Shown here: piece by piece, positions 1-9,261 of the stretch
Position numbering within the stretch: position 1 is the first letter of the stretch
How the letters are laid out: each line of letters opens with the position of its first letter
From: a virus
Taxonomy: Duplodnaviria > Heunggongvirae > Uroviricota > Caudoviricetes
Virus record (IMG/VR): IMGVR_UViG_2657245500_000015
Length of the DNA: 9,261 bases
Direction: 5' to 3' (one strand)
Translations under genes and position numbers: made by a program
Notes under the pieces: generated by a model
The model's input: the letters and a program-made list of their open reading frames with translations, nothing else
The model's database searches: none
What the model was told of the DNA's origin: nothing

Positions 1-74
1 TTATCGTGAGAGTAATTCATCGGCACGTTAAATCATATCAGGCGTAATACCACAACCCTTAAGTTAGCGCTTAT

Positions 75-95
75 GGGGGGAAGTCCCCCTTTTTA
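75..95 (+). terminator. Putative rho-independent terminator
   Basis: G/C stem 76-80 (GGGGG) pairs with 85-89 (CCCCC), loop AAGT, followed by TTTTT at 90-94. Stop codons in all three + frames within 1-45 are consistent with a + strand gene ending just left of or at the window start. Confidence 0.4.
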
Positions 96-435
96 ACGTC
101 ATTTTATGCAGGGAATGTGTAGTTCTACACAGATTCTATGCAGTATCGGTATAGTCCCTTTTTATTCTAACTTATTGAAATATATAAAGAATCTGCAAAG
201 CCTCTTTTCAGGGAGCTATGCAGGGTGTTAGTCGTCCCTCTCCAGACACTACATATAGTGCTATATACAGGGCTATATAACGATATATAGATGTTTGGTC
301 ACATGGTGTAACTATCAAGAAACTTAATAGTTTCCTATGTGAAAGTTATTTCTGAGGGTGGGTAAGTGCTCAGGAGATTTCATGAGGATAATTCTTATCC
401 GAATCATCACGTAGAACACGCTTAAGCACAGATAC

Positions 436-458
436 AAAAAAGCCCCCATGAAGGAGGC
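436..458 (-). terminator. Putative rho-independent terminator of the recombinase gene
   Basis: On the minus strand the RNA reads GCCUCC-UUCAU-GGGGGC (6-bp stem with one G-U pair) followed by UUUUUU; it lies 27 nt downstream of the recombinase stop at 485. Confidence 0.55.
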
Positions 459-484
459 TATGAATCTATGCAGGTGATGAGAAA

Positions 485-1051
485 TTATTCAGCTTTAATA
501 CGCTGTACAGTTGACTTGGCAACGTTGAATTGAGCGGCTACTTTAGCGATTGAACTACCAGCAGCAAGAGCAGCTTTAATACCTTCTCTGTCAACCGCTT
601 TACCGTTACCCCTTCCAACTACACGACCAGCAGCTTTAGCAGCTTCATAACCTTCTCTTTGACGCTCAAGCATCATTTTACGTTCAGCTTCAGCCACTGC
701 TGAAAAGATTGTGAGAATCATCTTAGACGTGGGGTTATCGTCACCAGTTATCAGACCTTCTTTGTGAAAGTGAACCTTGATACCTTTCTGTGAAAGTTTA
801 TCCACCAGCGTTAATACATCCACGGTAGAGCGCCCTAAACGTGACAGGTCGTGTACATGGATAGTGTCACCTTCACGAACATAATCGAGCATAGCCTTTA
901 GTTGTGGACGGTCTGTATTCTTCCCAGATGCTTTATCAGTAAATACCTTATCCAGTACGACCCCTTCAAGTTGACGGTCTGTAATCTGCTGGATTGATGA
1001 AACTCGAACATAACCAATGTTAGCCATAATATACTCATTTGCCTTACTCAT
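485..1051 (-). CDS. Serine recombinase, resolvase/invertase family
   Basis: N-terminus MANIGYVRVSSIQQ matches the catalytic-serine motif of Hin/Gin/gamma-delta resolvase; also FTDKASG, DLSRLGRS, ILTIFSAVAEAER E-helix, and a C-terminal HTH (SSIAKVAAQFNVAKSTVQRI). The likely true start is the internal Met at 1027 (MANIGY...), since the ATG at 1051 has no SD. Confidence 0.9.
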   Translation of the reverse strand: MSKANEYIMANIGYVRVSSIQQITDRQLEGVVLDKVFTDKASGKNTDRPQLKAMLDYVREGDTIHVHDLSRLGRSTVDVLTLVDKLSQKGIKVHFHKEGLITGDDNPTSKMILTIFSAVAEAERKMMLERQREGYEAAKAAGRVVGRGNGKAVDREGIKAALAAGSSIAKVAAQFNVAKSTVQRIKAE

Positions 1052-1071
1052 TTGATGGATTGAGTATAACG

Positions 1072-1153
1072 TACCGATAAAGTGTTTTACAAGGCTAATC
1101 GGTATGGTTTTTACAGGGGGTTAGCTATACCTTTTTAGTATGCTATATCGGTA
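1072..1153. promoter_or_regulatory. Candidate recombinase binding (res/crossover-like) region upstream of the recombinase gene
   Basis: Inverted pair TACCGAT (1072-1078) and ATCGGTA (1098-1104), a further ATCGGTA at 1147-1153, and direct GTTTTACAAGG / GGTTTTTACAGG motifs. Its position just 5' of the recombinase gene is typical for res sites. Not validated. Confidence 0.25.
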
Positions 1154-1519
1154 TGCCTAAGAGATGGAGATGCCTTTACAGCAACTCACATAGAAAGTCA
1201 ATAGATATTTGGCTTTTTTGCAAAGGGGGTCACATAGCTGGTGTGACGGGTACTTAGCAGGTATAGACCTGTGATAGATATTTTCGAAGATTCGGGGAAG
1301 ATGAGATTCAAAGAGGGCTAGTCATTTTTTATAAAAATTTTCAGACTCTGAAAAGTTACTGTACAGATTTTATACAGATATCTTTAAAGTATCTGTAAAG
1401 ACTTTTAAGATAAGAGATAGATATCCCAGAAAGGATATCCGTTTAGAAAACCTGTTAAGTATCTCTTAAAAGAGAGTAAACCTTGTCAATAGTGATTGCA
1501 ATAAAAATTTTTATTTCTT

Positions 1520-2182
1520 ATGTCAATTGAGCATATTTTAATCGGGAAACATCATGGGGGTTCTGATTACTGGAGAACTCCATTTCTTATATTCCGCAAT
1601 TTGCACCGTGAGTTTAGTTTCAGTCTGGATGGTGCTGCAACTGAGCATGACACGCTGTTACCACGATTCACCAATGATATTCACAATCAGTCATGGGATG
1701 GTGAACGGGTGTTCTGTAACCCACCATACAGCGACACTAAAACATTCCTCCTAAAAGCCGCTGAAGCGGATTTAGCGGTATTCCTGATACCGTACCGACC
1801 CCACACCACATACTGGCTTAAGCACCTCTTCACAAACCCGCTTTGCCATGAAATCCGTATTCTTCATCGTGCAGTTAAATACCTTCCACCAGCAGGGCAT
1901 AACGGGCTTGCTATTAGGTCACCGTTTGCAAGTGCAATTGTCATCTTTAAAACTGAGCCACGCAGACATGAAATTACGCAGATGATTTGCTGTGCTGATA
2001 CATTGCTACCGTTAACCATCATTAACAGAGGAGGCTTAAGAGGAAGACCCACCATTTACCCACCTGAGACGCTCGACAGCTTCATAAAGCTATACAGGCA
2101 AGGAAAACCCATTAAGTGCATTGCAGATGCTCTCAGAATGCCTCTGAGCACGTCATACAGGATTGCGCAAAGGTTGAGCTAA
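1520..2182 (+). CDS. Dam-family DNA N6-adenine methyltransferase with C-terminal invertase-type HTH domain
   Basis: WRTP, FSLDGAATEHDTLLPRF, VFCNPPYSD and VFLIPYRP motifs are typical of phage (T1-type) Dam methyltransferases. The last ~55 aa (NRGGLRGRPT...LYRQGKPIKCIADALRMPLSTSYRIAQRL) match the GRP plus HTH C-terminal domain of Hin/Gin-type serine recombinases. No obvious SD before the ATG at 1520. Confidence 0.8.
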   Translation: MSIEHILIGKHHGGSDYWRTPFLIFRNLHREFSFSLDGAATEHDTLLPRFTNDIHNQSWDGERVFCNPPYSDTKTFLLKAAEADLAVFLIPYRPHTTYWLKHLFTNPLCHEIRILHRAVKYLPPAGHNGLAIRSPFASAIVIFKTEPRRHEITQMICCADTLLPLTIINRGGLRGRPTIYPPETLDSFIKLYRQGKPIKCIADALRMPLSTSYRIAQRLS

Positions 2183-2286
2183 AATTCTCATAAATATGGC
2201 CATTTACAAGACAGGTGATTTAGATATTAAGAAGTATCCCTGTGAACAATAAATGACCAATCAGTAATTATTCTGTGAAATAATTG

Positions 2287-2315
2287 TTGCAATCTATAAT
2301 CACACATGATATAGT
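2287..2315 (+). promoter_or_regulatory. Candidate sigma70 promoter (TTGCAA-N17-TATAGT) upstream of the replication gene
   Basis: TTGCAA at 2287-2292, 17-bp spacer, TATAGT at 2310-2315. Confidence 0.35.
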
Positions 2316-2548
2316 TTCATAGTGGGCTGATAAAAAAGTTCATGTCTTGAAGTGGTAACACTTGGGGAGGTGTCAGATGATTGACGTCAACAAGACCTCT
2401 CATTCAGGGTAATTACCTCAGCGTTTTAATCATCGTACTGTTTCAGGCATGGACTTCTTTATCAGTCCATCAATCCCCCAGATATTTTAATCACACAGGC
2501 TAATCGGTTTTATCCGGTTGGCCTTTTCACGTATGAGGTAATTTATGA

Positions 2549-3487
2549 ATGTCTAAATATAACCCAAATCAGTTTTATAAATTTGATGTGCGAATCTCTC
2601 AGCTTTCAGAAGAAATTAACGCAGCAGCAAGATTAATTTATATGGTCATGGTTCATAGCTGTGATTTCTATGAAGAGAAGTACAAAGCATATTCACCAAG
2701 TATTGACCATCTAGCTTATATGGCTGGTGTTTCAAAGAGAACGGCAATCAGAGCTATTGAGACACTTGAGAAACACGGTTTAATTCAGGTGCAAAAGAAT
2801 CAGGGTCGTCAAAGCACTTATCGTGTATTCACACTGGATGATAAGCCGGAATTACTTGTAAGACCTACATCACAGGAAGTTGCAGCCTCAGTAAGACAAA
2901 ATGACACCACTACCAGTGACAAAATGTCATCAGTACCAGTGACAAAATGTCATGGGGGTAGTGACAAAATGTCACCCGTGTTAGATAAGTTATTAGATAA
3001 AACATTAGATAATAATATTATAGATAAGAGTAAAGATACTGAACTTGATGTTGGTATCAATGAAGATGATTTTCTTTCTTTGGATGAATTAAATGATTTT
3101 CTCTCTATGAATGAATCTGACCTTGATAGTGAAGCTACTAAAGAGACCTCTAAAACATCTGACTTAGAGGAAGATAAAATCTCTGATGTGAATGAAGTTA
3201 GTGACCAGCAAGATACACCTTGCCGCCTCGAATCAACTGATGATGAATTACCGGATGTTGACCTTGATGATGAAGAAGACCCTGAAGAGGAATTGAAACG
3301 TGAACAGCGTAAAGCAGAAATTAAAGAAAGATTCAGAAAGGCAAAGCTAAAGAACAGGATTGATGAACTTGATGACTTTGATGATAGTGACGATGATTTT
3401 ACTTTTACACCAAAAAAGAAAACTCACACCGAGCCAAAGAAAGAAAAAGTTAAAGTCAGACGTGTTTATGCTGGAGGAATGTTTTAA
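2549..3487 (+). CDS. Replication initiator protein (N-terminal HTH DNA-binding domain, acidic C-terminal tail)
   Basis: N-terminal region (SIDHLAYMAGVSKRTAIRAIETLEKHGLI) resembles HTH-type phage/plasmid replication initiators. Four iterons and an AT-rich tract lie inside the coding sequence, as in lambda O/ori. SD GAGG at 2534-2537. The C-terminal third is highly acidic low-complexity sequence. Confidence 0.8.
   Translation: MSKYNPNQFYKFDVRISQLSEEINAAARLIYMVMVHSCDFYEEKYKAYSPSIDHLAYMAGVSKRTAIRAIETLEKHGLIQVQKNQGRQSTYRVFTLDDKPELLVRPTSQEVAASVRQNDTTTSDKMSSVPVTKCHGGSDKMSPVLDKLLDKTLDNNIIDKSKDTELDVGINEDDFLSLDELNDFLSMNESDLDSEATKETSKTSDLEEDKISDVNEVSDQQDTPCRLESTDDELPDVDLDDEEDPEEELKREQRKAEIKERFRKAKLKNRIDELDDFDDSDDDFTFTPKKKTHTEPKKEKVKVRRVYAGGMF
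2893..2975. repeat. Iteron array: four copies of the palindromic motif (a)GTGACAAAATGTCA(t) at ~23-bp spacing
   Basis: GACAAAATG cores at 2895-2903 (degenerate copy AGACAAAATGACA), 2918-2926, 2941-2949 and 2963-2971. Each full site has dyad symmetry (TGACA-AAA-TGTCA). The 23/23/22-bp period is about two helical turns. Confidence 0.7.
2981..3029. other. AT-rich tract with repeated TTAGATAA (putative DNA unwinding element of the origin)
   Basis: TTAGATAA at 2981-2988, 2993-3000 and 3005-3012 (12-bp period), and TAGATAAG at 3022-3029, immediately downstream of the iterons. Same order (iterons then AT-rich) as lambda ori. Confidence 0.5.
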
Positions 3488-3777
3488 TGAAAGAATATAA
3501 CGGTGAAAAACGATACAAAGATTATCTATTAAGGCGCTACAGCATTTCTCGTGAAGGTCATCTTCTGAAAGATACTCATGGGGAGGTTTACCGGATTCGA
3601 CCGAAGAAGGAAGGAAAGAATTATTTCTTTTTTGATGGTGTGACAGATTTAAAGATTGACGCTTTGAGGTTTGCAGTGATGTATCATTTTGATGTCTGGG
3701 ATTCAGTCCACCAGCTACGATTAAAAGACGGTGACCCCGGTAATCTGAAGGCCACCAATATCATCACAAAACGTTAG
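3487..3777 (+). CDS. Hypothetical small protein, NUMOD4/HNH_3-like (possibly degenerate HNH)
   Basis: The ATG overlaps the replication gene stop (TAATG coupling) and GGAGGA SD lies at 3471-3476. YSISREGHLL, ALRFAVMYHF and LRLKDGDPGNLKATN parallel the Y.VSN.GRV / HRLV / HIDGNK.NN.NL pattern of small HNH homing-endonuclease-like proteins, but the conserved His positions appear replaced. Confidence 0.6.
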   Translation: MKEYNGEKRYKDYLLRRYSISREGHLLKDTHGEVYRIRPKKEGKNYFFFDGVTDLKIDALRFAVMYHFDVWDSVHQLRLKDGDPGNLKATNIITKR

Positions 3778-3959
3778 TTTGTTTTACCATCATCAATCGT
3801 AATTGTGATTTCATATTTGAAAAGCTTAATGCTGAAATTGAATCGTGTACTTTTGGCGATAATCATTTTTAAAAGCTGATACACCAGAAGCACCAGAAAC
3901 ACAAAGCAACCTAAGCTTGCGAATCTGTGAGATTCAGCAATTGTTTCAAGAAAGCCCAT
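3774..3959 (-). CDS. Small hydrophobic (probable membrane) protein, 61 aa
   Basis: Minus-strand ORF with a predicted transmembrane stretch (LGCFVFLVLLVYQLL). SD-like AAGGGGA 5 nt upstream of the ATG, and a candidate minus-strand promoter at 4011-4038. Its 3' end overlaps the convergent ORF ending at 3777. Confidence 0.4.
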   Translation of the reverse strand: MGFLETIAESHRFASLGCFVFLVLLVYQLLKMIIAKSTRFNFSIKLFKYEITITIDDGKTN

Positions 3960-4010
3960 TAATTCCCCTTATTTATCAAAGGGAATGACCTGTATCAGCC
4001 CCTATAACCA

Positions 4011-4038
4011 TAATATCATGTAAATGAGATGTTGACAA
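4011..4038 (-). promoter_or_regulatory. Candidate minus-strand sigma70 promoter (TTGTCA-N16-TATTAT)
   Basis: The reverse complement of 4033-4038 is TTGTCA and of 4011-4016 is TATTAT, with a 16-bp spacer. It would drive the small hydrophobic ORF 3959->3774. Confidence 0.35.
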
Positions 4039-4060
4039 TATGTTAAATAAATGTTAAGAT
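4032..4060 (+). promoter_or_regulatory. Candidate sigma70 promoter (TTGACA-N17-TAAGAT) for the 4097-4812 operon
   Basis: TTGACA at 4032-4037, 17-bp spacer, TAAGAT at 4055-4060. Its -35 overlaps the -35 of the divergent minus-strand promoter. Confidence 0.4.
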
Positions 4061-4096
4061 TGTAGTATGAGTAAGAGATTTAAGGAGATTTTTACA

Positions 4097-4387
4097 ATGA
4101 CTCACACAGTTACGCGCCTTTTGCCAGAGGCATTTGAACGACTGGCAGCAATCAAAGCCAAATATCCCGATATGAAGCACACAGCGCTTGTTGCAGAGGT
4201 TTTAAAAGAGCCGGTAGACTTGACCCCTTTCGATAACGTTAAGGGCGTTGCAGAGGGTTCTAAGGCCATCAGAATCACAACGGGCCAACTGGAACTACTC
4301 AAAGCACAGTCCGCAGTAGCAGGTTGCTCAATGATTCAGGTCTTAAGCGCAAAGGTTCATCAATTAGCGGATAAGCTGGGGGTTTAA
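4097..4387 (+). CDS. Hypothetical DNA-binding protein, ribbon-helix-helix-like (possibly two tandem RHH motifs)
   Basis: The start is moved to the ATG at 4097 because of the AAGGAG SD at 4082-4087 (the ATG at 4067 sits on the promoter). TVTRLLPEAFERLAAIKAKY...HTALVAEVL and IRITTGQLELLKAQSAVAG...MIQVLSAKV each fit a beta-strand/helix/helix RHH pattern. Confidence 0.65.
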   Translation: MTHTVTRLLPEAFERLAAIKAKYPDMKHTALVAEVLKEPVDLTPFDNVKGVAEGSKAIRITTGQLELLKAQSAVAGCSMIQVLSAKVHQLADKLGV

Positions 4388-4812
4388 TGCTATGTACATT
4401 TGATTATCATGCGTTTTATCGACATAGAGGTCATCTTGTCCGTGAGAATAACGGAACATGGAAAGATTTAACTCGTAATGCTGAACCCTTCACACACCAG
4501 CAATTAAAATCCCGCTTCTCCAGATGGAAGAATGCACCAGCAGATACTGGTGATTTTGAGATTATCCATACCTTCGATTATGCCTCAGAAGATGACCTTC
4601 ACGATGCAATTAAGCTGATTGAAGACTTCAATACCTCAGAAAATGTGGATGGTGACAAATATAAATCCCGTGGTAACCGCTATAACCGTGATGATATCAC
4701 TCAGGCCATAAATGCTGGTCAATCTCAGCGATACATTACAGAAAAATATGGTATTTCACGGAGACAGTATTTCTACGTTAAATCATTGATTAATAAAGAC
4801 AATTCAAAATAA
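4387..4812 (+). CDS. Hypothetical protein with C-terminal helix-turn-helix
   Basis: The ATG overlaps the upstream stop (TAATG), indicating translational coupling. C-terminal ITQAINAGQSQRYITEKYGISRRQYFYV resembles resolvase/HTH_23-type HTH motifs. Confidence 0.65.
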   Translation: MLCTFDYHAFYRHRGHLVRENNGTWKDLTRNAEPFTHQQLKSRFSRWKNAPADTGDFEIIHTFDYASEDDLHDAIKLIEDFNTSENVDGDKYKSRGNRYNRDDITQAINAGQSQRYITEKYGISRRQYFYVKSLINKDNSK

Positions 4813-4971
4813 CCATCTCAGTAACGGTAGAATGCACTTTACAGGCAGAGTTGCACCTTAATTTGATAAATTACCTTACCAGCCAGTGCAACTCCCTCTG
4901 TAACCCGCATGGTTACTGGCCTCAGAATGGCTATTTTAAGAGGTCTGAGATGTGTTTTAGAGGAATTTAAA

Positions 4972-5295
4972 ATGAGCAATTACGAATTACAGATTTTCGT
5001 TGATAACGACACCGCTATGATGATTCAGGCTTTCAGTGATTCCGGTGTATCAATTGATTTTGACAGGCTGTTAAAGCTGATGGCTGATAATGCAGAAAAC
5101 ATCTCTGACTTTATTCAGTCGGTGGAGTTTAACGAGCCTCGAATGATGCTACCAATTACCGACTCAAACATGAAAAGATTGGTTATCGAGCAAACGAACA
5201 AACACAGTATTTCCCCAGAGCAATTTTTGAAAGGTGCTGTGACAATCCTGCACAGCGATAATATTCTGGTGACGGATTCTATGAGGGTTCACTAA
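4972..5295 (+). CDS. Hypothetical protein (107 aa)
   Basis: The start is placed at the ATG at 4972, preceded by GAGGA at 4959-4963; the longer ORF from 4909 has no SD. No family recognised. Confidence 0.6.
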   Translation: MSNYELQIFVDNDTAMMIQAFSDSGVSIDFDRLLKLMADNAENISDFIQSVEFNEPRMMLPITDSNMKRLVIEQTNKHSISPEQFLKGAVTILHSDNILVTDSMRVH

Positions 5296-5372
5296 TGGGA
5301 TTGATAATTGCTTGGACAGCTTTAGGTTTATTTGTTGGTTGCTGGGTGGGCAACACAGTAAATAAGAATTGA
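5295..5372 (+). CDS. Possible 25-aa hydrophobic peptide (MGLIIAWTALGLFVGCWVGNTVNKN)
   Basis: The ATG overlaps the stop of the upstream gene (TAATG at 5293-5297). The peptide is a single predicted transmembrane helix. Below the size cut-off of the ORF track. Confidence 0.3.
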   Translation: MGLIIAWTALGLFVGCWVGNTVNKN

Positions 5373-5396
5373 TGTTACCAATCTGTTAAAAAGCTG

Positions 5397-5425
5397 TTGA
5401 CAAATAACCTTAAGCATGGCATAAT
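5397..5425 (+). promoter_or_regulatory. Consensus-like sigma70 promoter (TTGACA-N17-CATAAT)
   Basis: TTGACA at 5397-5402, 17-bp spacer, CATAAT at 5420-5425; predicted transcription start near 5432. Confidence 0.5.
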
Positions 5426-5620
5426 TGTATATATGAGGATAGTCTTCTATCCGAAGTCTATAGGAAGAGCAATTTTTCCTAAAATCATATTTTCAATAAT
5501 CCGATGGATGGATATTCTGAGTTGGAAAGGTGCAATGCTTTTCGTCATGGCCTTTCAGTTTAGTCTGAGAGGTCATCTCAAAAAGTGCTTAATCATTCAT
5601 TATTGAACCCTTACAGCTTT

Positions 5621-5650
5621 GCCCTAACTCATGATTAGGGCGTTTTCTTT
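5621..5650 (+). terminator. Rho-independent terminator
   Basis: Stem GCCCTAA (5621-5627) pairs with TTAGGGC (5635-5641), 7-nt loop, followed by GTTTTCTTT. About 220 nt downstream of the 5397 promoter. Confidence 0.55.
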
Positions 5651-5720
5651 AAGAGTTTTGAAACAGAGCTTTTAAAGAAAGTTTTCCTGAAACTTCGTTA
5701 ACGTTATAAGCAAACCTTCA

Positions 5721-5755
5721 AAGCCCTTCACAGATTATGTTTAGGGCTTTTCTTA
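5721..5755 (+). terminator. Second terminator-like hairpin
   Basis: AAGCCCT (5721-5727) pairs with AGGGCTT (5743-5749), 15-nt loop, followed by TTCTT. Weaker than the first because of the large loop. Confidence 0.3.
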
Positions 5756-5851
5756 ATAGAGCATCTTTAATAAATCGTTAAGTCATCTTCTAAGTGTATT
5801 GGCGTTGAAGGTGCTCTATTAAGAAATAACCACACTTAGAGGAAAAAAATA

Positions 5852-6562
5852 ATGACAAACGATATTTACATTAATGGCAAAGTGATTGATAGCTTCGGTG
5901 ACTGGTCACCACAGACTGAACATCCAGCTATCGCTATTCAGCGCAAAGAGCACGATGCGAGAATTGCACTTGAGCAATCGCTAAAGATGACACCAAAGGA
6001 AATTACCTTTGTGGCTCCTGAACCTCAAGAGATGCCCGATATTGGCAAAACTGAAGCATTATTTAATCTTGAGCGCGAATATTACCCACAGTTAAAAGAA
6101 CAGCGCCTTAGATTAGATGACGCTTACAGCAAAGTTACCTTGATGCAATCAGCTATTGAGCCGTCAGAATTTGAGATTCAGGATGAATTGTCACAGAAAC
6201 CATTTGTCTATTACCAATACGAAGACAATGATGGTTTTGGTACTTTTCCAGAAAACATCACAGGCGTGATTAGTAGTCTTCCTGATGGATATCGAATTGT
6301 GAAGATGGTTAAAGCTTCAAGAGGTGCTGGTCAGTTTATTTACATGACCAATAAGAGCGATGAAGAACTCCGTGAAATTGCCAGACAGAACATCTTGGCA
6401 TCACGTAACAAGCAACTTGAAAATGTTAAGTTGTATCTCTCAAGAGAGCTTCAGGCTATGAAAGAGCTTGTTAGTGAATATGAGTCGCAGAAGAAGATTG
6501 CTATGCAAGCCGATATTGAGCAGCTTACGAAGATTTCTCAGAAGTATAGCAAAGCGATTTAA
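5852..6562 (+). CDS. Hypothetical protein (236 aa, C-terminal predicted coiled coil)
   Basis: Long ORF with SD AGAGG at 5838-5842 and ATG at 5852. No family recognised. Confidence 0.75.
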   Translation: MTNDIYINGKVIDSFGDWSPQTEHPAIAIQRKEHDARIALEQSLKMTPKEITFVAPEPQEMPDIGKTEALFNLEREYYPQLKEQRLRLDDAYSKVTLMQSAIEPSEFEIQDELSQKPFVYYQYEDNDGFGTFPENITGVISSLPDGYRIVKMVKASRGAGQFIYMTNKSDEELREIARQNILASRNKQLENVKLYLSRELQAMKELVSEYESQKKIAMQADIEQLTKISQKYSKAI

Positions 6563-6578
6563 TTTAAGTGAGGTGAGA

Positions 6579-6794
6579 ATGATTGATTTGCAACAGCGTT
6601 ATGAAACTATTAAGTCGGCTTGTGAAAACTTAAAGTTACAAACCAAGCCAGCCTTAAGAATTAAAACCAAACATCAAATTATCACCTCACACAAACCAAA
6701 AACACGCAAGATTCCAAAGTGGTGTATTGACCGTATTCCTTCTGATGCTCAAATCATAGGTGAAACGGAATTACATTATCTTGTCCGACATTAA
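6579..6794 (+). CDS. Hypothetical small basic protein (71 aa)
   Basis: ATG at 6579 preceded by GAGGTGA at 6568-6574. The longer ORF from 6468 overlaps the preceding gene and lacks an SD. Confidence 0.5.
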   Translation: MIDLQQRYETIKSACENLKLQTKPALRIKTKHQIITSHKPKTRKIPKWCIDRIPSDAQIIGETELHYLVRH

Positions 6795-6821
6795 AAAAGA
6801 ATTGGTTGGGTAAAAATCAAC

Positions 6822-6863
6822 GGGAGAGATTATCGAGTGATATCGGTAGTTTCTCCCTTTTTT
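6822..6863 (+). terminator. Putative terminator hairpin with T-run
   Basis: GGGAGA (6822-6827) pairs with TCTCCC (6852-6857), followed by TTTTTT at 6858-6863. The loop is long (24 nt), so stability is uncertain. Confidence 0.4.
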
Positions 6864-6870
6864 GTATGTG

Positions 6871-6913
6871 TGCTACGTGAAATCTTCTGAACAGATATAC
6901 CCACCAAAAATTA
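6871..6913. repeat. Direct repeat copy R1 (TGCTACGTGA-AAT-CTTCTGAACAGATA...AAAAATTA)
   Basis: About 43 bp, near-identical to 9110-9152: blocks TGCTACGTGA (10/10), CTTCTGAACAGATA (14/14) and CAAAAATTA match, with a short variable linker. R1 is additionally bounded by the 7-bp inverted repeat GCTACGT (6872-6878) / ACGTAGC (6920-6926). Confidence 0.7.
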
Positions 6914-6954
6914 TTTTTTACGTAGCTCACGCTTAAAGAGGTGAAAAAATATGA

Positions 6955-9021
6955 ATGGCACAATTTAAAGTTGATGATTTTCTGATTGAGCTAGGTTTTA
7001 ACTCTCAGAGGGTTTTAAAAGGTCTGGAAAAAGCCGAGAAACAAACGATGCAGGTAGCATCACGAATTGAGAAGCGATTGAATAAAGCTTTTAAAGTTAA
7101 CCCTACGCCTTTAAATGATTCTCTCAAGGTCATGGAAAGAAATGTCGATAAAACTGTTTCCAAGATTGAGCAGCGTCTTAAAAACACTAAAGCGTTTAAG
7201 ATTAAAACGGAAATTGAGGATACTTTAAAGCCACTTAGACAACCGAGACAGCCACGAATTAGCGGAAGCAGAGCAATTACAGCAGCGCATAGCGTGAATA
7301 TGAGCAAGCTTCGTGACTTTAATCCTATGCTTGAGAAGTATTTTAAAAGCCAGTATTACAGCTTAAGCAGTAAATCCAAGACACTTGGAAACGAAGCTTT
7401 TAATCGTGAGTTAGCAAAATTAAATCAATCTCTTCGTGAAACACTTTCTAAGTTTAACAAGACCACCAGCAAAAATAATCACAGTGAAAATGCTTCGAAT
7501 GGTCTGGATGTATTAGCTACGAGTGCAATCAAAGCAGGTACAGCCATTTATAGTTTTCAGACAGCCTTAGAAGCTTACAGGCGGATTATGGAGGTTGGTC
7601 TGAAAAAAGAAGCATCACAACGAGCGGCACAATTCGTTTTAGGTGATGAAGGTGCTAAACGAGCTACAGAATTTGTTAAGAATCTTGCTGATAGTAGTGG
7701 TGTAGACCAGATTGAAACATTAAGCAGTTTTGCTAAGTTTTCCGCTGGTGCTGGTGATATGAATGCAGACCAGAAAGAATCCTTATTTTCTAATGTGATT
7801 GGTACATCCAGATTAATGGGGCTAAGCACCGATGAAATTAACGGGATTTTAAAAGCTTTCGAGCAGATGGCATCTAAAGGAAAGATTCAGGCTGAAGAGC
7901 TACGCGGTCAATTAGGTGACAGAATGGCAGGTGCTTTTCAGTTATTTGCCAGAAGTCTTGGGATGACTACGGAAGAATTAGACAAGGCTATGAAAGACGG
8001 TAAGGTTCTTTCTAAAGATGTTCTCCCTAAAGTATCCGCTGAAATGGGAAAGATGATTGATAAAGCGGGAGGATGGGAAAAGATTATTAACTCTACTCAG
8101 ACGCAGTTAGGCCGCTTAAGTAATTCATGGAATAATAATTTGGCCTTAATGTTCGATGGTTCACAGGAAGGTTTAACAGACTTTACAAGGTCACTGACTA
8201 ATTTACTTAATTCACTGGGTGGTCAATCTAAAAATCTTGGTGAACATTTTGGCGACTTGATGAAAAGCATGTCAAACGGTATTGATGATTTAACCACGAT
8301 TAGCTACCGAGTGCAGGGATTCTTTGACAGAGTGACCCTTGCTTACAGAGAATTAAATGACACTCAAAAAGCTGTAGCTGATGGTATCGCAAATGGCCTG
8401 TTAAGTGCATTAAAGGGACTTGCTGGTATTGTCGCTGTAAGGTCTGGTATTGGTGCTGTAGGTGGTATCTGGAACTTAATTAGGGCTATTTCCACGCTTG
8501 GGAATGTAGCAAATACAGCAGCAGGAAGAATTAATTCACGTTCTGGTGGTGTTGAAAGTGGAAAAAGTAGGCTATCTGTAGCTGATGCAATTACCAGAGT
8601 AATGATTGTCGGTATGACAACTGATGTGATTAATGCCATTGTCAAACCGTTCTATGAACGTCAGATGAGTAAGTCAGATAATCCGATTGATAAAGTTGTA
8701 AGGTCAAAGGTGGAACCCACAGACCAGGCATTAACTGGTGACATGAACTCTTTAGCCGCTGTTTTATGGGCTATGGTTCATGGCAAATCAAAAGATGTTC
8801 CACAGTTTTCACCTGAAGCATTAAATAATCTAAAAGGTCGAGTGGAAACATTCACACAAGATTTAAAGGTTATCAAGCCGTCAGTAAATATTCAGCCTCA
8901 GACAATCAATATCACAACTCAGACGGTACTTGATGGAAAGGTTATTGATGAAAGAACCACATCGCATATTAATCGTATGCAGGAAGATACCTTGATTAGC
9001 TCAGCTTACCCAGAGGAATAA
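6955..9021 (+). CDS. Tape-measure-domain protein (phage tail tape measure-like), 688 aa
   Basis: The segment FEQMASKGKIQAEELRGQLGDRMAGAFQLFARSLGMTTEELDKAMKDGKVLSKDVLPKVSAEMGK matches the conserved tape-measure domain pattern (SKGK.Q.EEL..QL..R.PGA.Q..A...G....EL...M..GK.L...VLP). A Gly-rich hydrophobic segment (GLAGIVAVRSGIGAVGGIWNLI) is typical of tape-measure proteins. SD AAAGAGGTGA at 6936-6945. Confidence 0.85.
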   Translation: MAQFKVDDFLIELGFNSQRVLKGLEKAEKQTMQVASRIEKRLNKAFKVNPTPLNDSLKVMERNVDKTVSKIEQRLKNTKAFKIKTEIEDTLKPLRQPRQPRISGSRAITAAHSVNMSKLRDFNPMLEKYFKSQYYSLSSKSKTLGNEAFNRELAKLNQSLRETLSKFNKTTSKNNHSENASNGLDVLATSAIKAGTAIYSFQTALEAYRRIMEVGLKKEASQRAAQFVLGDEGAKRATEFVKNLADSSGVDQIETLSSFAKFSAGAGDMNADQKESLFSNVIGTSRLMGLSTDEINGILKAFEQMASKGKIQAEELRGQLGDRMAGAFQLFARSLGMTTEELDKAMKDGKVLSKDVLPKVSAEMGKMIDKAGGWEKIINSTQTQLGRLSNSWNNNLALMFDGSQEGLTDFTRSLTNLLNSLGGQSKNLGEHFGDLMKSMSNGIDDLTTISYRVQGFFDRVTLAYRELNDTQKAVADGIANGLLSALKGLAGIVAVRSGIGAVGGIWNLIRAISTLGNVANTAAGRINSRSGGVESGKSRLSVADAITRVMIVGMTTDVINAIVKPFYERQMSKSDNPIDKVVRSKVEPTDQALTGDMNSLAAVLWAMVHGKSKDVPQFSPEALNNLKGRVETFTQDLKVIKPSVNIQPQTINITTQTVLDGKVIDERTTSHINRMQEDTLISSAYPEE

Positions 9022-9109
9022 ACAATGTTAGAGCTACTAATATTTATTGCCACACATGGCAATCTATTAATCTTTATCTAGTATGACGATTCAACTATGA
9101 ATAGTCGAA

Positions 9110-9152
9110 TGCTACGTGATTTCTTCTGAACAGATACCAACATCAAAAATTA
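9110..9152. repeat. Direct repeat copy R2
   Basis: Near-identical to R1 (6871-6913); lies 89 bp downstream of the tape-measure gene stop. It lacks the right-hand ACGTAGC inverted-repeat arm seen at R1. Confidence 0.7.
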
Positions 9153-9261
9153 GATGAACCGCCCCGGGTTTCCTGGAGAGTGTTTTATCTGTGAACTCAG
9201 GCTGCCAGATCATTGTTTCCGATGGAAGCATAATAAGCTTTTTCTGCTTCTGCCGGAGGAG
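9112..9261 (-). CDS. Possible 3' end of a minus-strand gene continuing beyond the window (partial)
   Basis: The minus-strand frame is open for 49 codons from the window edge to a TAG at 9112-9114 (...LIFDVGICSEEIT*). The last ~110 bp are about 50% GC by manual count, against roughly 40% elsewhere. A + strand frame from the ATG at 9154 is also open, so strand and reality are uncertain. Confidence 0.25.
   Translation of the reverse strand, partial: LLRQKQKKLIMLPSETMIWQPEFTDKTLSRKPGAVHLIFDVGICSEEIT

What the first reader, a model, noticed from the sequence alone, without database searches (positions are those of the whole stretch)
100..480. Repeat-rich non-coding spacer between convergent terminators
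A ~340-bp stretch without any substantial ORF carries the motif TATGCAG(G) four times on the same strand (105-112, 137-143, 217-224, 467-474). It also has a compact cluster of 7-bp AT-rich elements in alternating orientation (CATATAG 252-258, CTATATA 261-267 and 273-279, TATATAG 284-290). Such arrays suggest protein-binding sites (partition or centromere-like, packaging, transfer origin or an operator cluster) or a non-coding RNA locus.
Basis: seen in the sequence. Interest (0 to 1): 0.45.

Follow-up and report, generated by a model that had tools for sequence, protein, structure and literature searches.

The report
Conserved control region of satellite-like island
The repeat-rich spacer is real non-coding DNA, kept almost unchanged just inside one end of an apparently undescribed 11.5-kb mobile island that looks like a phage satellite and is found in about one E. 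coli genome in ten; it is most likely a docking platform for DNA-binding proteins rather than a gene.

Summary

**Context**
- Window 1-75 is the end of an IS421 (IS4-family) insertion sequence. It is inserted in a GC hairpin, which is the "left terminator".
- The right terminator belongs to a small serine recombinase gene (485-1051, minus strand).
- Window 124-302/348 is a non-coding module found in 550 of 5,426 complete E. coli genomes, always chromosomal and never annotated. It also occurs in Salmonella and Citrobacter.
- The module lies about 100 bp inside attL of an ~11.5-kb island. The island is mobilised by a large serine recombinase and carries tape-measure and Dit-like tail genes. It has no capsid or terminase genes.

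**Motifs**
- Relatives carry 2-6 same-strand TATRCA copies at shifting positions, against 0-1 on the other strand.
- Only the copy at 137 is general within Escherichia and Salmonella.
- The copy at 217 is present in half of the relatives.
- The copy at 105 is in a rare left-arm variant.
- The copy at 467 is probably a chance match.
- Only the two central AT-rich heptamers are conserved.

**Tests**
- The module has no codon periodicity, no Rfam match and no convincing covariation.
- The island's replication repeats lie elsewhere.

**Best reading**
- It is a multi-site protein-binding control region with an IHF-like bend.
- A packaging site is the main rival.

The parts
1..75 (.). Terminal segment of an IS421 (IS4-family) insertion sequence. 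It is not part of the feature, but it explains the left border.
   Evidence: window 1-94/97 is 94-96% identical to the ends of annotated IS421 family transposase elements in hundreds of plasmids; relatives L001 and L004 lack it and share the window's sequence only from position 76 on.
75..96 (+). GC hairpin GGGGGGAAGTCCCCC followed by T5. It looks like a terminator and is the IS insertion point.
   Evidence: terminator scan; in L001 it starts about 19 bp after the stop codon of a large serine recombinase gene. L004 has the same hairpin with no gene upstream.
98..123 (+). Left-arm variant carrying TATGCAG copy 1 (105-111) and the palindrome TGTGTAG TT CTACACA (116-131).
   Evidence: only 3-5 relatives share it. 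Most relatives have a different arm of about 70 bp with its own TATGCA copies at -52 and -21 relative to position 137.
124..163 (+). Conserved block A, TTCTACACAGATTCTATGCAGTATCGGTATAGTCCCTTTTTA. It holds TATGCAG copy 2 (137-143), the bipartite ACAG-N7-GCAG, and the left arm (128-137) of a 10-bp inverted repeat.
   Evidence: near-zero entropy across 44 relatives. CACAGA is invariant across three genera; a paralogous 19-bp motif lies at 1359-1377.
168..197 (+). TAACTTATTGAAATATATAAAGAATCTG. It holds an IHF-consensus-like core (168-180, on the complementary strand) with an AT tract, and the right arm of the 10-bp inverted repeat (188-197; AGAATCTGTG in most relatives).
   Evidence: TAACTTATTGA and AAGAATCT are invariant in E. 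coli, Salmonella and Citrobacter; one E. coli relative (strain C7, L054) and both Citrobacter loci match YAANNNNTTGATW perfectly, and the other 46 of 47 Escherichia/Salmonella regions match with one mismatch.
213..225 (+). Dimorphic patch that holds TATGCAG copy 3 (217-223) in the window. The alternative allele is TAAACTGTATC.
   Evidence: about half of the relatives carry each allele. The alleles are reassorted freely with those of the other patches.
226..243 (+). Conserved block C, GTGTTAGTCGTCCCTCTC.
243..257 (+). Dimorphic patch (CAGACACTACATATA or TCGACTCCTAGAAAA).
   Evidence: CATATAG is absent from the commoner allele.
257..282 (+). Block D, AGTGCTATATACAGG..CTATATAAC. It holds the two conserved AT-rich heptamers and TATACAG (264-270).
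   Evidence: AGTGCTATATACAGG is identical in all seven loci from three genera. TATRCA is at +127 in 44 of 47 relatives.
283..348 (+).
   Evidence: homology to L003 and L055 ends at 348. In L054 and L061 the module ends at about 284 and a + strand cargo gene starts 60-70 bp further on.
441..459 (-). Intrinsic terminator of the small serine recombinase gene.
   Evidence: shared by relatives that have - strand recombinase cassettes.
467..473 (+). TATGCAG copy 4. It lies in the recombinase cassette between the stop codon and the terminator and is probably a chance match.
   Evidence: L001, whose recombinase is 99% identical, has TCTATATAGG here. The other relatives lack the segment.
485..1051 (-). 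Small serine recombinase (188 aa). It is one of five alternative cassettes that occupy the slot to the right of the module.
   Evidence: Resolvase, E = 4.5e-37. (PHROG family 'DNA invertase', E = 1.2e-58); five types that are 30-41% identical to the window's recombinase. Each type has a fixed orientation, and some islands have none.
1168..1379 (+). Second conserved non-coding module, to the right of the slot. It ends with CTGTACAGATTTTATACAG (1359-1377), a direct paralogue of 125-143.
   Evidence: (D10).

Best explanation
**What it is**
Window ~124-302 is a conserved, non-coding, cis-acting DNA module. Its arm reaches left to the IS junction at 76, and a tail reaches right to ~348.

The module sits about 100 bp inside the attL end of an ~11.5-kb chromosomal island. 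A large serine recombinase (LSR) integrates the island. The island carries replication genes plus tape-measure and Dit-like tail genes, and it has no capsid, terminase or lysis genes. That profile is like a phage satellite.

**How I think it works (inferred)**
It is a multi-site protein-binding control region.
- A left cluster of same-strand (R)CAG / TATRCAG sites is spaced at about one helical turn.
- An invariant IHF-like bend site follows.
- Further TATRCAG-type sites and an invariant 15-bp box (AGTGCTATATACAGG) lie to the right.
- An unidentified DNA-binding protein, encoded by the island or by a helper phage, would bind these sites cooperatively.
- The same 19-bp site recurs 1.2 kb away (1359-1377), upstream of the island's long operon. 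The two modules may therefore act together, for example by looping around the variable recombinase slot, to control transcription near attP.
- In the excised circle the module is also the upstream region of the LSR gene.

**Shown versus inferred**
- Shown: conservation, absence of coding signal, motif enrichment and strand bias, position within the island, and the paralogous site.
- Inferred: protein binding, a role for IHF, and the regulatory outcome.
For: **Distribution and annotation**
- The module is in 550 of 5,426 E. coli genomes, on chromosomes only, and is never annotated.

**Island boundaries and content**
- The island splits yecE (a DUF72 gene), and sits in wrbA, in mdtG and between yciI and tonB.

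**Conservation**
- Invariant boxes are interrupted by dimorphic patches, with no 3-base periodicity.
- The boxes are identical in Salmonella and Citrobacter islands, whose 236-aa core protein is only about 41-57% identical.
- The module persists when cargo genes lie on both sides of it (L054).
- It persists whatever recombinase cassette is adjacent.

**Motifs**
- TATRCA occurs 2-6 times on the + strand against 0-1 on the - strand in 47 distinct relatives. The positions are -52, -32, -21, 0, +80, +127 and +151. No shuffle out of 3000 reaches the observed count.
- The 19-bp paralogue at 1359-1377 is conserved across the family.
- ACAGATW occurs 14 times against 3.8 expected, mostly in intergenic DNA.
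- RCAG-N7-RCAG occurs 5 times against 0.9 expected.

**Position relative to the LSR gene**
- The LSR start codon is only 50-70 bp from attR.
Against: - No binding protein has been identified.
- No sigma-70-type promoter in the module is conserved across genera. One + strand candidate (126-155) exists in E. coli and none in Citrobacter, and the counts do not exceed shuffles.
- A one-mismatch IHF match is expected by chance at roughly 0.2 per region (my estimate).
- The relatives are related by descent, so motif counts across them are not independent.
- The dimorphic patches do not co-vary with each other or with any second site in the island.
- A packaging site would look much the same.
Confidence: 0.4

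Rival explanations
1. It is a packaging recognition site (pac- or cos-like). A small terminase subunit, from the helper phage or the island, binds the phased repeats on both sides of an IHF bend, as at lambda cosB or P1 pac. It then starts encapsidation of the excised, replicated island.
For: - The module is constant while cargo, recombinase and replication modules vary. That is expected of a site tied to one helper, whose tail genes (tape measure, Dit-like) are also core.
- Its layout is short repeats, an IHF-like site, then more repeats.
- The island is ~11.5 kb with accessory slots next to the module. This resembles P4, where cos sits beside the accessory hotspot and int-attP (from my own knowledge).
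- No conserved promoter, RNA structure or ORF explains the conservation.
Against: - The region has no similarity to any of 50,697 phage records beyond a terminator hairpin, so there is no sign that it mimics a helper's site.
- No terminase-like gene was recognised in the island.
- The 19-bp motif has a paralogue upstream of the main operon, and ACAGATW is dispersed in intergenic DNA. Both fit a regulator better.
- Neither metagenome nor virome contigs show the island as a free or circular molecule.
Confidence: 0.25
2. It is a recombination site (res-, hix- or crossover-type) for the adjacent small serine recombinase. The TATGCAG / ATCGGTA motifs would be half-sites.
For: - ATCGGTA occurs 5 times against 0.5 expected. 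One copy is in block A (145) and three lie upstream of the recombinase gene, including an inverted pair at 1072-1104.
- Short similarities exist between 129-165 and 1098-1377.
- 19-bp direct repeats bracket the slot.
Against: - The module is the same next to five recombinase types that are only 30-41% identical to the window's recombinase, and next to no recombinase at all.
- No recombinase type is found in both orientations, and no precise deletion between the repeats was seen.
- The ATCGGTA cluster at 1072-1153 lies inside the type-specific cassette, to the left of 1168 where homology to L002 (an island with a different recombinase type) resumes.
Confidence: 0.08
3. It is a small non-coding RNA gene, for example an immunity or antisense RNA like P4 CI RNA. 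The dimorphic patches would be its specificity determinants.
For: - Conserved blocks alternate with multi-nucleotide dimorphic patches.
- One small hairpin (191-211) shows an A-U to C-G change in three relatives.
- The - strand minimum free energy has a z-score of -2.2.
- A + strand promoter candidate lies at 126-155.
Against: - No Rfam family matches.
- The consensus folds are weak (-9 and -19.5 kcal/mol over 194 columns; -9 and -18 over 167 columns), with essentially no compensatory pairs.
- No terminator lies inside the module.
- The promoter candidate is lost in Citrobacter.
- The patches have no complementary or duplicated partner elsewhere in the islands.
Confidence: 0.08
4. It is the island's replication origin, made of a DnaA-box-like site, an AT-rich tract, an IHF site and short iterons.
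For: - TTTTACACA, a perfect TTWTNCACA match, is present in 17 of 47 relatives and a one-mismatch version in another 17.
- An AT-rich tract and an IHF-like site lie next to it.
Against: - The window's rep-like gene contains four 22-23-bp direct repeats at 2895-2980. This is the classical lambda O-type origin arrangement, inside the initiator gene (from my own knowledge).
- Replication modules differ between islands while this module does not.
- The DnaA-like box is absent from 13 of 47 relatives.
- The repeats are short and irregularly spaced.
Confidence: 0.04
5. It has no specific function. It would be a stretch of old intergenic DNA kept as a homologous linker between exchangeable modules, and the repeats would be chance or left over from duplications.
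For: - Window-level significance of the 7-mer cluster is marginal (18 of 300 shuffles).
- The copy number and positions of TATRCAG vary between relatives.
- Mosaic breakpoints fall at its edges.
Against: - The 15-bp and 11-bp boxes are invariant across three genera, while the flanking genes diverge strongly.
- The strand bias is strong.
- The motif recurs in non-homologous arm variants.
Confidence: 0.1

Closest known systems
Lambda cosB and P1 pac packaging sites (IHF-assisted terminase-binding arrays)
   Same: Short repeated protein-binding elements lie on both sides of an IHF-type bend in about 200 bp of non-coding DNA. The site is cis-acting and strongly conserved.
   Different: No sequence similarity to any phage record. 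No terminase gene was recognised in the island. No cohesive-end or cleavage sequence can be identified. The repeats are 7-8 bp with variable copy number.
Satellite phage P4 (11.6 kb; cos beside an accessory-gene hotspot and int-attP)
   Same: An element of about 11.5 kb in Enterobacteria is integrated site-specifically. Variable cargo slots lie next to a conserved non-coding site near the integrase/att end. The element lacks capsid genes.
   Different: The integrase is a large serine recombinase, not a tyrosine one. The genes are unrelated: a tape measure and a Dit-like protein instead of sid, psu and delta. No P2-type cos sequence is present. Dependence on a helper phage is not shown.
Vibrio cholerae PLE (satellites of the lytic myovirus ICP1, mobilised by a large serine recombinase)
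   Same: The island has a large serine recombinase at one end, its own replication initiator with iterons, and no capsid genes. Its tape-measure protein is most similar (28-29% identity) to those of virulent Felix O1-like myoviruses.
   Different: No sequence relationship was shown. The island is smaller. PLE is not known to carry tape-measure or Dit genes (from my own knowledge). The helper, induction and transfer are untested.
P2 Cox and lambda Xis binding arrays (helically phased direct repeats next to att that also regulate promoters)
   Same: Same-strand short repeats are spaced at about 10-11, 21 and 31 bp close to attP, with an IHF-type site nearby.
   Different: Those systems serve tyrosine integrases. 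Serine integrases are not known to need accessory DNA sites (from my own knowledge). No Cox- or Xis-like gene was identified.
P1 parS centromere (heptamer and hexamer boxes around an IHF site)
   Same: Heptamer repeats flank an IHF-like site.
   Different: No parA/parB-type genes are present. The element is chromosomal and integrated. No plasmid has a similar sequence.

Membership tests
Rho-independent terminators (the two flanking hairpins) | GC-rich stem-loop followed directly by a T-run, placed downstream of a gene on the same strand | tested here: met
   75-89 plus TTTTT on the + strand, and 459-441 plus TTTTTT on the - strand. The right hairpin follows the recombinase stop codon (485). 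The left hairpin follows an LSR gene in L001, but in the window it abuts an IS end.
Structured non-coding RNA (Rfam families) | Match to a covariance model at its gathering score | tested here: not met
   the best hit inside 100-480 scores 19.9 bits against a gathering score of 55 (Phe_leader; this is the terminator hairpin).
Structured non-coding RNA (any) | Consensus secondary structure supported by compensatory changes | tested here: not met
   consensus fold energies are -9 kcal/mol (+ strand) and -18 to -19.5 (- strand) over 167-194 columns. One pair shows A-U to C-G in 3 of 42 sequences, and the other pairs do not vary or are broken; z-scores of -1.5 and -2.2.
Protein-coding gene | ORF with a start codon that is conserved, and substitutions concentrated at third codon positions | tested here: not met
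   the open frames lack start codons or shift between relatives; variable sites by codon position number 15, 13 and 18.
IHF-binding site | Match to WATCAANNNNTTR with a flanking AT tract | tested here: inconclusive
   46 of 47 Escherichia/Salmonella regions match with one mismatch (TTGAAA for TTGATW), and one E. coli relative (L054) matches perfectly. Both Citrobacter loci also match perfectly. The core is invariant across genera. Binding itself was not tested, and a one-mismatch match is not rare by chance.
Iteron-type replication origin | Several direct repeats of 17-23 bp at regular spacing of about 22 bp, associated with the initiator gene | tested here: not met
   The repeats in 100-480 are 7-8 bp at spacings of 31, 21, 80, 47 and 24 bp. 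Repeats of the defining kind lie instead at 2895-2980, inside the rep-like gene.
res or hix/gix sites of small serine recombinases | Sites specific to, and co-varying with, the adjacent recombinase; inversion or deletion products seen among relatives | tested here: not met
   the module is unchanged next to five recombinase types and next to none. Each type has a single orientation.
Plasmid/prophage partition centromere or oriT | Cognate ParA/ParB or relaxase genes, or sequence similarity to known centromeres or oriTs on plasmids | tested here: not met
   no such proteins; no plasmid match at E <= 1 apart from one 28-bp chance hit.
cos/pac packaging site | Recognised and cut by a terminase; virion DNA ends or packaging series start there; usually similar to the helper's site or adjacent to a terS gene | not testable with these tools
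   Only indirect tests were possible. No phage has similar DNA, no terS-like gene was found, and no virion-derived contig was found.
Phage satellite (the island as a whole) | Discrete integrative element with its own integrase and replication, lacking a full structural gene set | tested here: met
   an 11-12 kb element with the same gene order at five chromosomal sites in three genera. It is bounded by an LSR gene and splits yecE and wrbA. Only the tape-measure and Dit-like genes are structural.
Phage satellite (the island as a whole) | Helper-dependent induction, packaging and transfer | not testable with these tools
   No experimental data are available. No paper describing the island was found.

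The most novel reading that the evidence does not exclude
The spacer is the helper-recognition site (packaging start or helper-responsive operator) of a previously undescribed family of phage satellites. The family is mobilised by a large serine recombinase and carries tape-measure and Dit-like tail genes. It is present in about 10% of complete E. coli genomes and also occurs in Salmonella and Citrobacter. It would be an enterobacterial counterpart of the Vibrio PLEs.
Probability: 0.25. Interest if true: 0.75.

Novelty: new variant of a known kind. Interest (0 to 1): 0.5.

Why it matters
**If the module is the control or packaging site**
- The island is widespread and unannotated, looks like a satellite, and carries tail genes plus swappable cargo slots.
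- The module would then give a short, easily searched DNA signature. The boxes TAACTTATTGA...AAGAATCT...AGTGCTATATACAGG can be used to find these islands, to define their ends and to design transfer or induction experiments.
- It would also add an enterobacterial example of a satellite that uses a serine integrase.
- Because the module sits between two cargo slots, it would give a handle on how such elements exchange accessory genes.

**If it turns out to be only a regulatory spacer**
- The practical gains remain: a corrected reading of the region (an IS-disrupted island end, not a stand-alone repeat locus) and the catalogue of the island family.

Tried and rejected
- **Coding.** I looked for a hidden small ORF, including a 21-aa GTG-initiated peptide at 225-290. 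I rejected it because frames and ends are not conserved and there is no codon periodicity.
- **RNA.** An Rfam scan, single-sequence folding on both strands and consensus folding on 42-44 relatives including Citrobacter gave no supported structure.
- **P4-like RNA immunity.** I searched every long island for second copies or complements of the dimorphic patches and found only sporadic 9-mers.
- **Invertible switch.** L003 has its recombinase in the opposite orientation, which suggested inversion. It is a different gene (36% identical). Clustering shows five recombinase types, each with a single orientation.
- **Circular or virion forms.** I checked 10-15-kb metagenome contigs for terminal overlaps and found none. 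They carry chromosomal flanks. Three IMG/VR scans returned four contigs that carry the island in an integrated context, not helper phages.
- **Helper site mimicry.** A blastn search of the region against 50,697 phage records found only a terminator-like hit.
- **oriT or centromere mimicry.** A blastn search against 72,556 plasmids found nothing.
- **Leftward LSR promoter across attP.** Hand inspection gave only 8-of-12 matches that vary between arm types, and the scanner found none.
- **LexA box in the 1359-1377 motif.** The spacing is wrong (N11 instead of N8).
- **Literature.** Four full-text searches found no description of the island.
- **Defence and family scans.** PADLOC and NCBIfam scans of the island proteins gave nothing that bears on the spacer.
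Full report
**1. What is at the coordinates**

No ORF longer than 41 aa lies between 100 and 480. Terminator-like hairpins sit at 75-89 (+ strand, followed by T5) and 459-441 (- strand, followed by T6).

The motif statistics are mixed.
- TATGCAG occurs 5 times in the window against 1.38 expected.
- Allowing for post-hoc choice, some 7-mer reaches 4 same-strand copies within 370 bp in 18 of 300 dinucleotide shuffles of the window. It does so in only 2 of 2000 shuffles of the region itself.
- The CTATATA family is not enriched on its own (3 against 1.29 expected; 28 of 200 shuffles).

**2. The surroundings change the reading**

- Window 1-75 is the end of an IS421 (IS4-family) element. It is inserted in the GC hairpin GGGGGGAAGTCCCCC. 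Relatives without the IS have the intact hairpin. From my own knowledge, IS186-type elements prefer GGGG(N6-7)CCCC targets.
- The right-hand terminator ends a 188-aa small serine recombinase gene (485-1051, - strand). It matches Pfam Resolvase at 4.5e-37 and the PHROG family 'DNA invertase' at 1.2e-58.
- The rest of the window encodes a Dam-like methyltransferase with an HTH_7 tail, a lambda-O/DnaD-like initiator, several unknown proteins and a tape-measure protein.
- At about 9148 the sequence turns into what looks like an IS3-family inverted repeat. L003 has an IS3 family transposase at the same place.
- This copy of the element is therefore cut by insertion sequences at both ends.

**3. The region belongs to a mobile island**

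Window 120-350 has homologues in 550 of 5,426 complete E. coli genomes (434 of them covering at least 80% of it). All are chromosomal, 74-95% identical, and never annotated. Annotated neighbourhoods show one ~11.5-kb element with the same gene order at different chromosomal sites.
- It splits yecE (a DUF72 gene) in LZSFT34 and F070.
- It lies between yciI and tonB in KV7, C7, TD225-C4 and a Citrobacter strain.
- It lies in mdtG in E110019.
- It lies in the 5' end of wrbA in Salmonella, Citrobacter and a metagenome E. coli.
- It lies between lafU and dinB in APEC O18.

The common layout runs in this order:
1. attL, then about 25-50 bp
2. a hairpin, ACCTGTnnnnnACAGG, followed by TATCAGG
3. a variable arm
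4. the conserved non-coding module
5. a variable slot
6. a second conserved non-coding module
7. replication genes and genes of unknown function
8. the tape-measure gene and a Dit-like gene
9. the large serine recombinase (LSR) gene on the - strand, then attR

No capsid, portal, terminase or lysis genes are present.

In the window and in APEC O18 the LSR gene lies instead to the left of the module on the + strand, with its stop codon in the loop of the ACCTGT hairpin. The tape-measure protein is 28-29% identical over its full length to those of virulent Felix O1-like myoviruses. Four literature searches found no description of this element. I therefore regard it as a satellite-like island whose helper dependence is untested.

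**4. Anatomy and conservation of the spacer**

I aligned 44-47 distinct copies from E. coli genomes, one species-representative scan and one metagenome scan. Most copies become homologous to the window at 121-125, and homology to the window ends at ~302-348 in most copies (at ~284 in L054 and L061).

Six blocks are near-invariant:
- 124-163
- 169-212
- 226-243
- 258-271
- 274-282
- 296-302

Four short variable patches separate them:
- 164-168
- 213-225
- 243-257
- 283-295

Three of the patches are dimorphic multi-nucleotide alleles, and these are reassorted in all combinations.

More distant islands in Salmonella and Citrobacter were reached through the 236-aa core protein. Their protein is only about 41-57% identical, yet they keep these boxes unchanged: CACAGA, TAACTTATTGA, AAGAATCT, AGTC..CCC.CTC..GAC, AGTGCTATATACAGG and TAT.TAAC. 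In every pairwise island comparison the module is one of the DNA segments that still aligns. It also persists when cargo genes lie on both sides of it, as in strain C7.

**5.

Relative to the copy at 137 (position 0 below), TATGCA occurs at six positions among the 40 relatives that have enough flanking sequence.

| Position relative to 137 | Relatives with TATGCA (of 40) | Equivalent in the window |
|---|---|---|
| -52 | 28 | none (different arm) |
| -32 | 3 | copy at 105 |
| -21 | 13 (TAAGCAG in most others) | degenerate (TGTGTAG at 116-122) |
| 0 | all, by construction | copy at 137 |
| +80 | 20 | copy at 217 |
| +151 | 8 | replaced by TATATAG (284-290) |

- The anchor copy at 137 becomes TATACAG in one E. 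coli relative (L064) and TACGCAG in one Citrobacter island, and is deleted in the other.
- With the relaxed form TATRCA, block D adds a copy at +127 in 44 of 47 relatives.
- Each relative has 2-6 copies on the + strand and 0-1 on the - strand. No shuffle out of 3000 reaches the observed count.
- The copy at 467 lies in the recombinase cassette and is absent from APEC O18, whose recombinase is 99% identical. I treat it as chance.
- Of the AT-rich heptamers, only 261-267 and 273-279 are conserved. The outer two fall in variable patches.

The enrichment and strand bias of a TATRCAG-type element are therefore real, and they recur in non-homologous arm variants.

**6. Further structure**

- In the left cluster the (R)CAG cores are phased at about 10-11 bp: 108, 118 (GTAG in the window, GCAG in relatives), 129 and 140. 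The -52, -21 and 0 copies are 31 and 21 bp apart.
- Block A contains ACAG-N7-GCAG. Its 19-bp core, CTACACAGATTCTATGCAG, has a direct paralogue, CTGTACAGATTTTATACAG, at 1359-1377. That paralogue lies at the right edge of the second conserved module and is conserved in nearly all relatives.
- CACAGATTCT (128-137) and AGAATCTGTG (188-197 in most relatives) form a 10-bp inverted repeat around the box TAACTTATTGAAA. On the complementary strand that box matches the IHF consensus WATCAANNNNTTR with one mismatch, and it matches perfectly in strain C7 and in Citrobacter. The consensus is from my own knowledge.
- ACAGATW occurs 14 times in the window against 3.8 expected, and 10 of the 14 copies are in intergenic DNA.
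- RCAG-N7-RCAG occurs 5 times against 0.9 expected.

**7. What it is not**

- *Not coding.* Open frames lack start codons or shift between relatives, and variable sites fall 15, 13 and 18 across the three codon positions.
- *Not a recognisable or structured RNA.* There is no Rfam hit. Consensus folds reach only -9 and -19.5 kcal/mol over 194 columns and -9 and -18 over 167 columns, with one compensatory pair in 3 of 42 sequences. Single-sequence z-scores are -1.5 and -2.2.
- *Not the origin.* The classical iterons, four 22-23-bp repeats, are inside the rep-like gene at 2895-2980. Replication modules differ between islands while this module does not.
- *Not the small recombinase's specific site.* The slot next to the module holds five recombinase types that are 30-41% identical to the window's recombinase, each in a fixed orientation, or none at all. 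In some islands it holds an AP2-like gene or unknown genes. The ATCGGTA inverted pair at 1072-1104 lies in the type-specific cassette, to the left of 1168 where homology to L002 resumes, and is a better candidate for that role.
- *Not plasmid-like.* No plasmid matches it.
- *Not similar to any phage record*.
- *No conserved sigma-70 promoter.* One + strand candidate (TACACA-N18-TATAGT, 126-155) exists in E. coli and none in Citrobacter, and counts do not exceed shuffles.

**8. Most likely mechanism**

A conserved, non-coding, non-RNA, orientation-fixed module is best read as a nucleoprotein assembly site. It has phased same-strand short repeats, an invariant IHF-like core and invariant boxes of 11-15 bp.

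I favour a control (operator) region at 0.40, for three reasons.
- Its core 19-bp element recurs upstream of the main operon.
- Related ACAGAT elements are scattered through the island's intergenic DNA.
- No helper-like sequence exists in the phage collection.

In islands with the LSR gene at the right end, its start codon is only 50-70 bp from attR. After excision the module therefore becomes the upstream region of the integrase gene. This is a plausible target of such control, but it is inference only.

The main rival is a pac/cos-type packaging site at 0.25. It would explain equally well why the module is the constant partner of the conserved tail genes and why it sits between cargo slots near att, as cos does in P4.

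The lesser rivals are:
- recombinase site, 0.08
- small RNA, 0.08
- origin, 0.04
- no function, 0.10

**9. Novelty and verdict**

The spacer is not a free-standing repeat locus. It is the att-proximal cis module of a widespread island that is apparently undescribed, looks like a phage satellite and uses a serine integrase.

- As a kind of thing, it is a new variant of known kinds: IHF-assisted multi-site control or packaging regions, and phage satellites.
- Interest is moderate (0.5). The function is unproven, but the module gives a compact signature and an experimental entry point for an element present in about one E. coli genome in ten.

Noticed in passing
window 2895-2980 and 3066-3116: Four direct repeats of 22-23 bp ((A)GTGACAAAATGTCA..) at 22-23-bp spacing lie inside the rep-like gene 2549-3487. 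A 24-bp repeat pair follows. This is the lambda O-type arrangement of an origin inside the initiator gene.
   Followed up: partly
window 6871-6913 and 9110-9152: A 43-bp repeat (TGCTACGTGAAATCTTCTGAACAGATA...CAAAAATTA, 84% identical between copies) sits just upstream of the tape-measure gene, after a terminator at about 6823-6866. A second copy sits just after that gene. A weaker relative (CCTATGTGAAAGTTATTTCTGA) lies at 333-356, inside the finding's tail. It could be a repeated promoter or regulatory element.
   Followed up: partly
window 129-9192 (14 sites): ACAGATW occurs 14 times against 3.8 expected (0 of 200 shuffles reach 14), and 10 of the 14 copies are in intergenic DNA. They include a palindrome, ACAGATA-N9-TATCTGT, at 1374-1396.
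   Followed up: partly
window 1-75 and about 9148-9261: The island copy in this window is interrupted at both ends by insertion sequences. An IS421 end lies on the left, in a GGGG..CCCC hairpin. What looks like an IS3-family inverted repeat (TGAACCGCCCCGGGTTTCCTGGAGAG) lies on the right, between the tape-measure gene and the expected Dit-like gene. L003 has an IS3 family transposase at the same place.
   Followed up: partly
window 1072-1156: ATCGGTA occurs three times upstream of the recombinase gene, including an inverted pair, TACCGAT-N19-ATCGGTA (1072-1104). These are probably the recombinase's own binding or res-like sites. They lie in the cassette-specific DNA.
   Followed up: partly
slot equivalent to window about 349-1167, in loci L001-L061: The slot to the right of the module holds five different small serine recombinase genes (30-41% identical to the window's recombinase; each type in a fixed orientation), an AP2-like gene, unknown genes, or nothing. 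In strain C7 and in one Citrobacter island, extra cargo genes also sit to the left of the module. Why a satellite-like island collects diverse small serine recombinases is unexplained.
   Followed up: partly
L055 5910-7728 (Salmonella island); likewise L001 12949-14988: Islands without the methyltransferase/rep module have 1.3-2 kb with no annotated genes. L055, the only one scanned, has no ORF longer than 102 aa there and a 95-bp tandem repeat (1.9 copies) at 7006-7183. This could be an alternative origin or a long non-coding transcript.
   Followed up: no
L001 11975-11990, L004 about 11955, L005 about 11925 (lost to the IS in the window): The hairpin ACCTGTnnnnnACAGG followed by TATCAGG marks the inner edge of attL in all arm types. 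In APEC O18 the stop codon of a + strand LSR gene lies in its loop. In other islands the LSR gene is at the opposite end on the - strand. The integrase-att module therefore exists in two inverted arrangements.
   Followed up: partly
window 6955-9021: The tape-measure protein aligns over its full length, at 28-29% identity, with those of virulent Felix O1-like (Ounavirinae) myoviruses. The downstream 'baseplate protein' of relatives is Dit-like (PF21821), a family typical of siphoviruses. The helper phage, if there is one, is unknown.
   Followed up: partly
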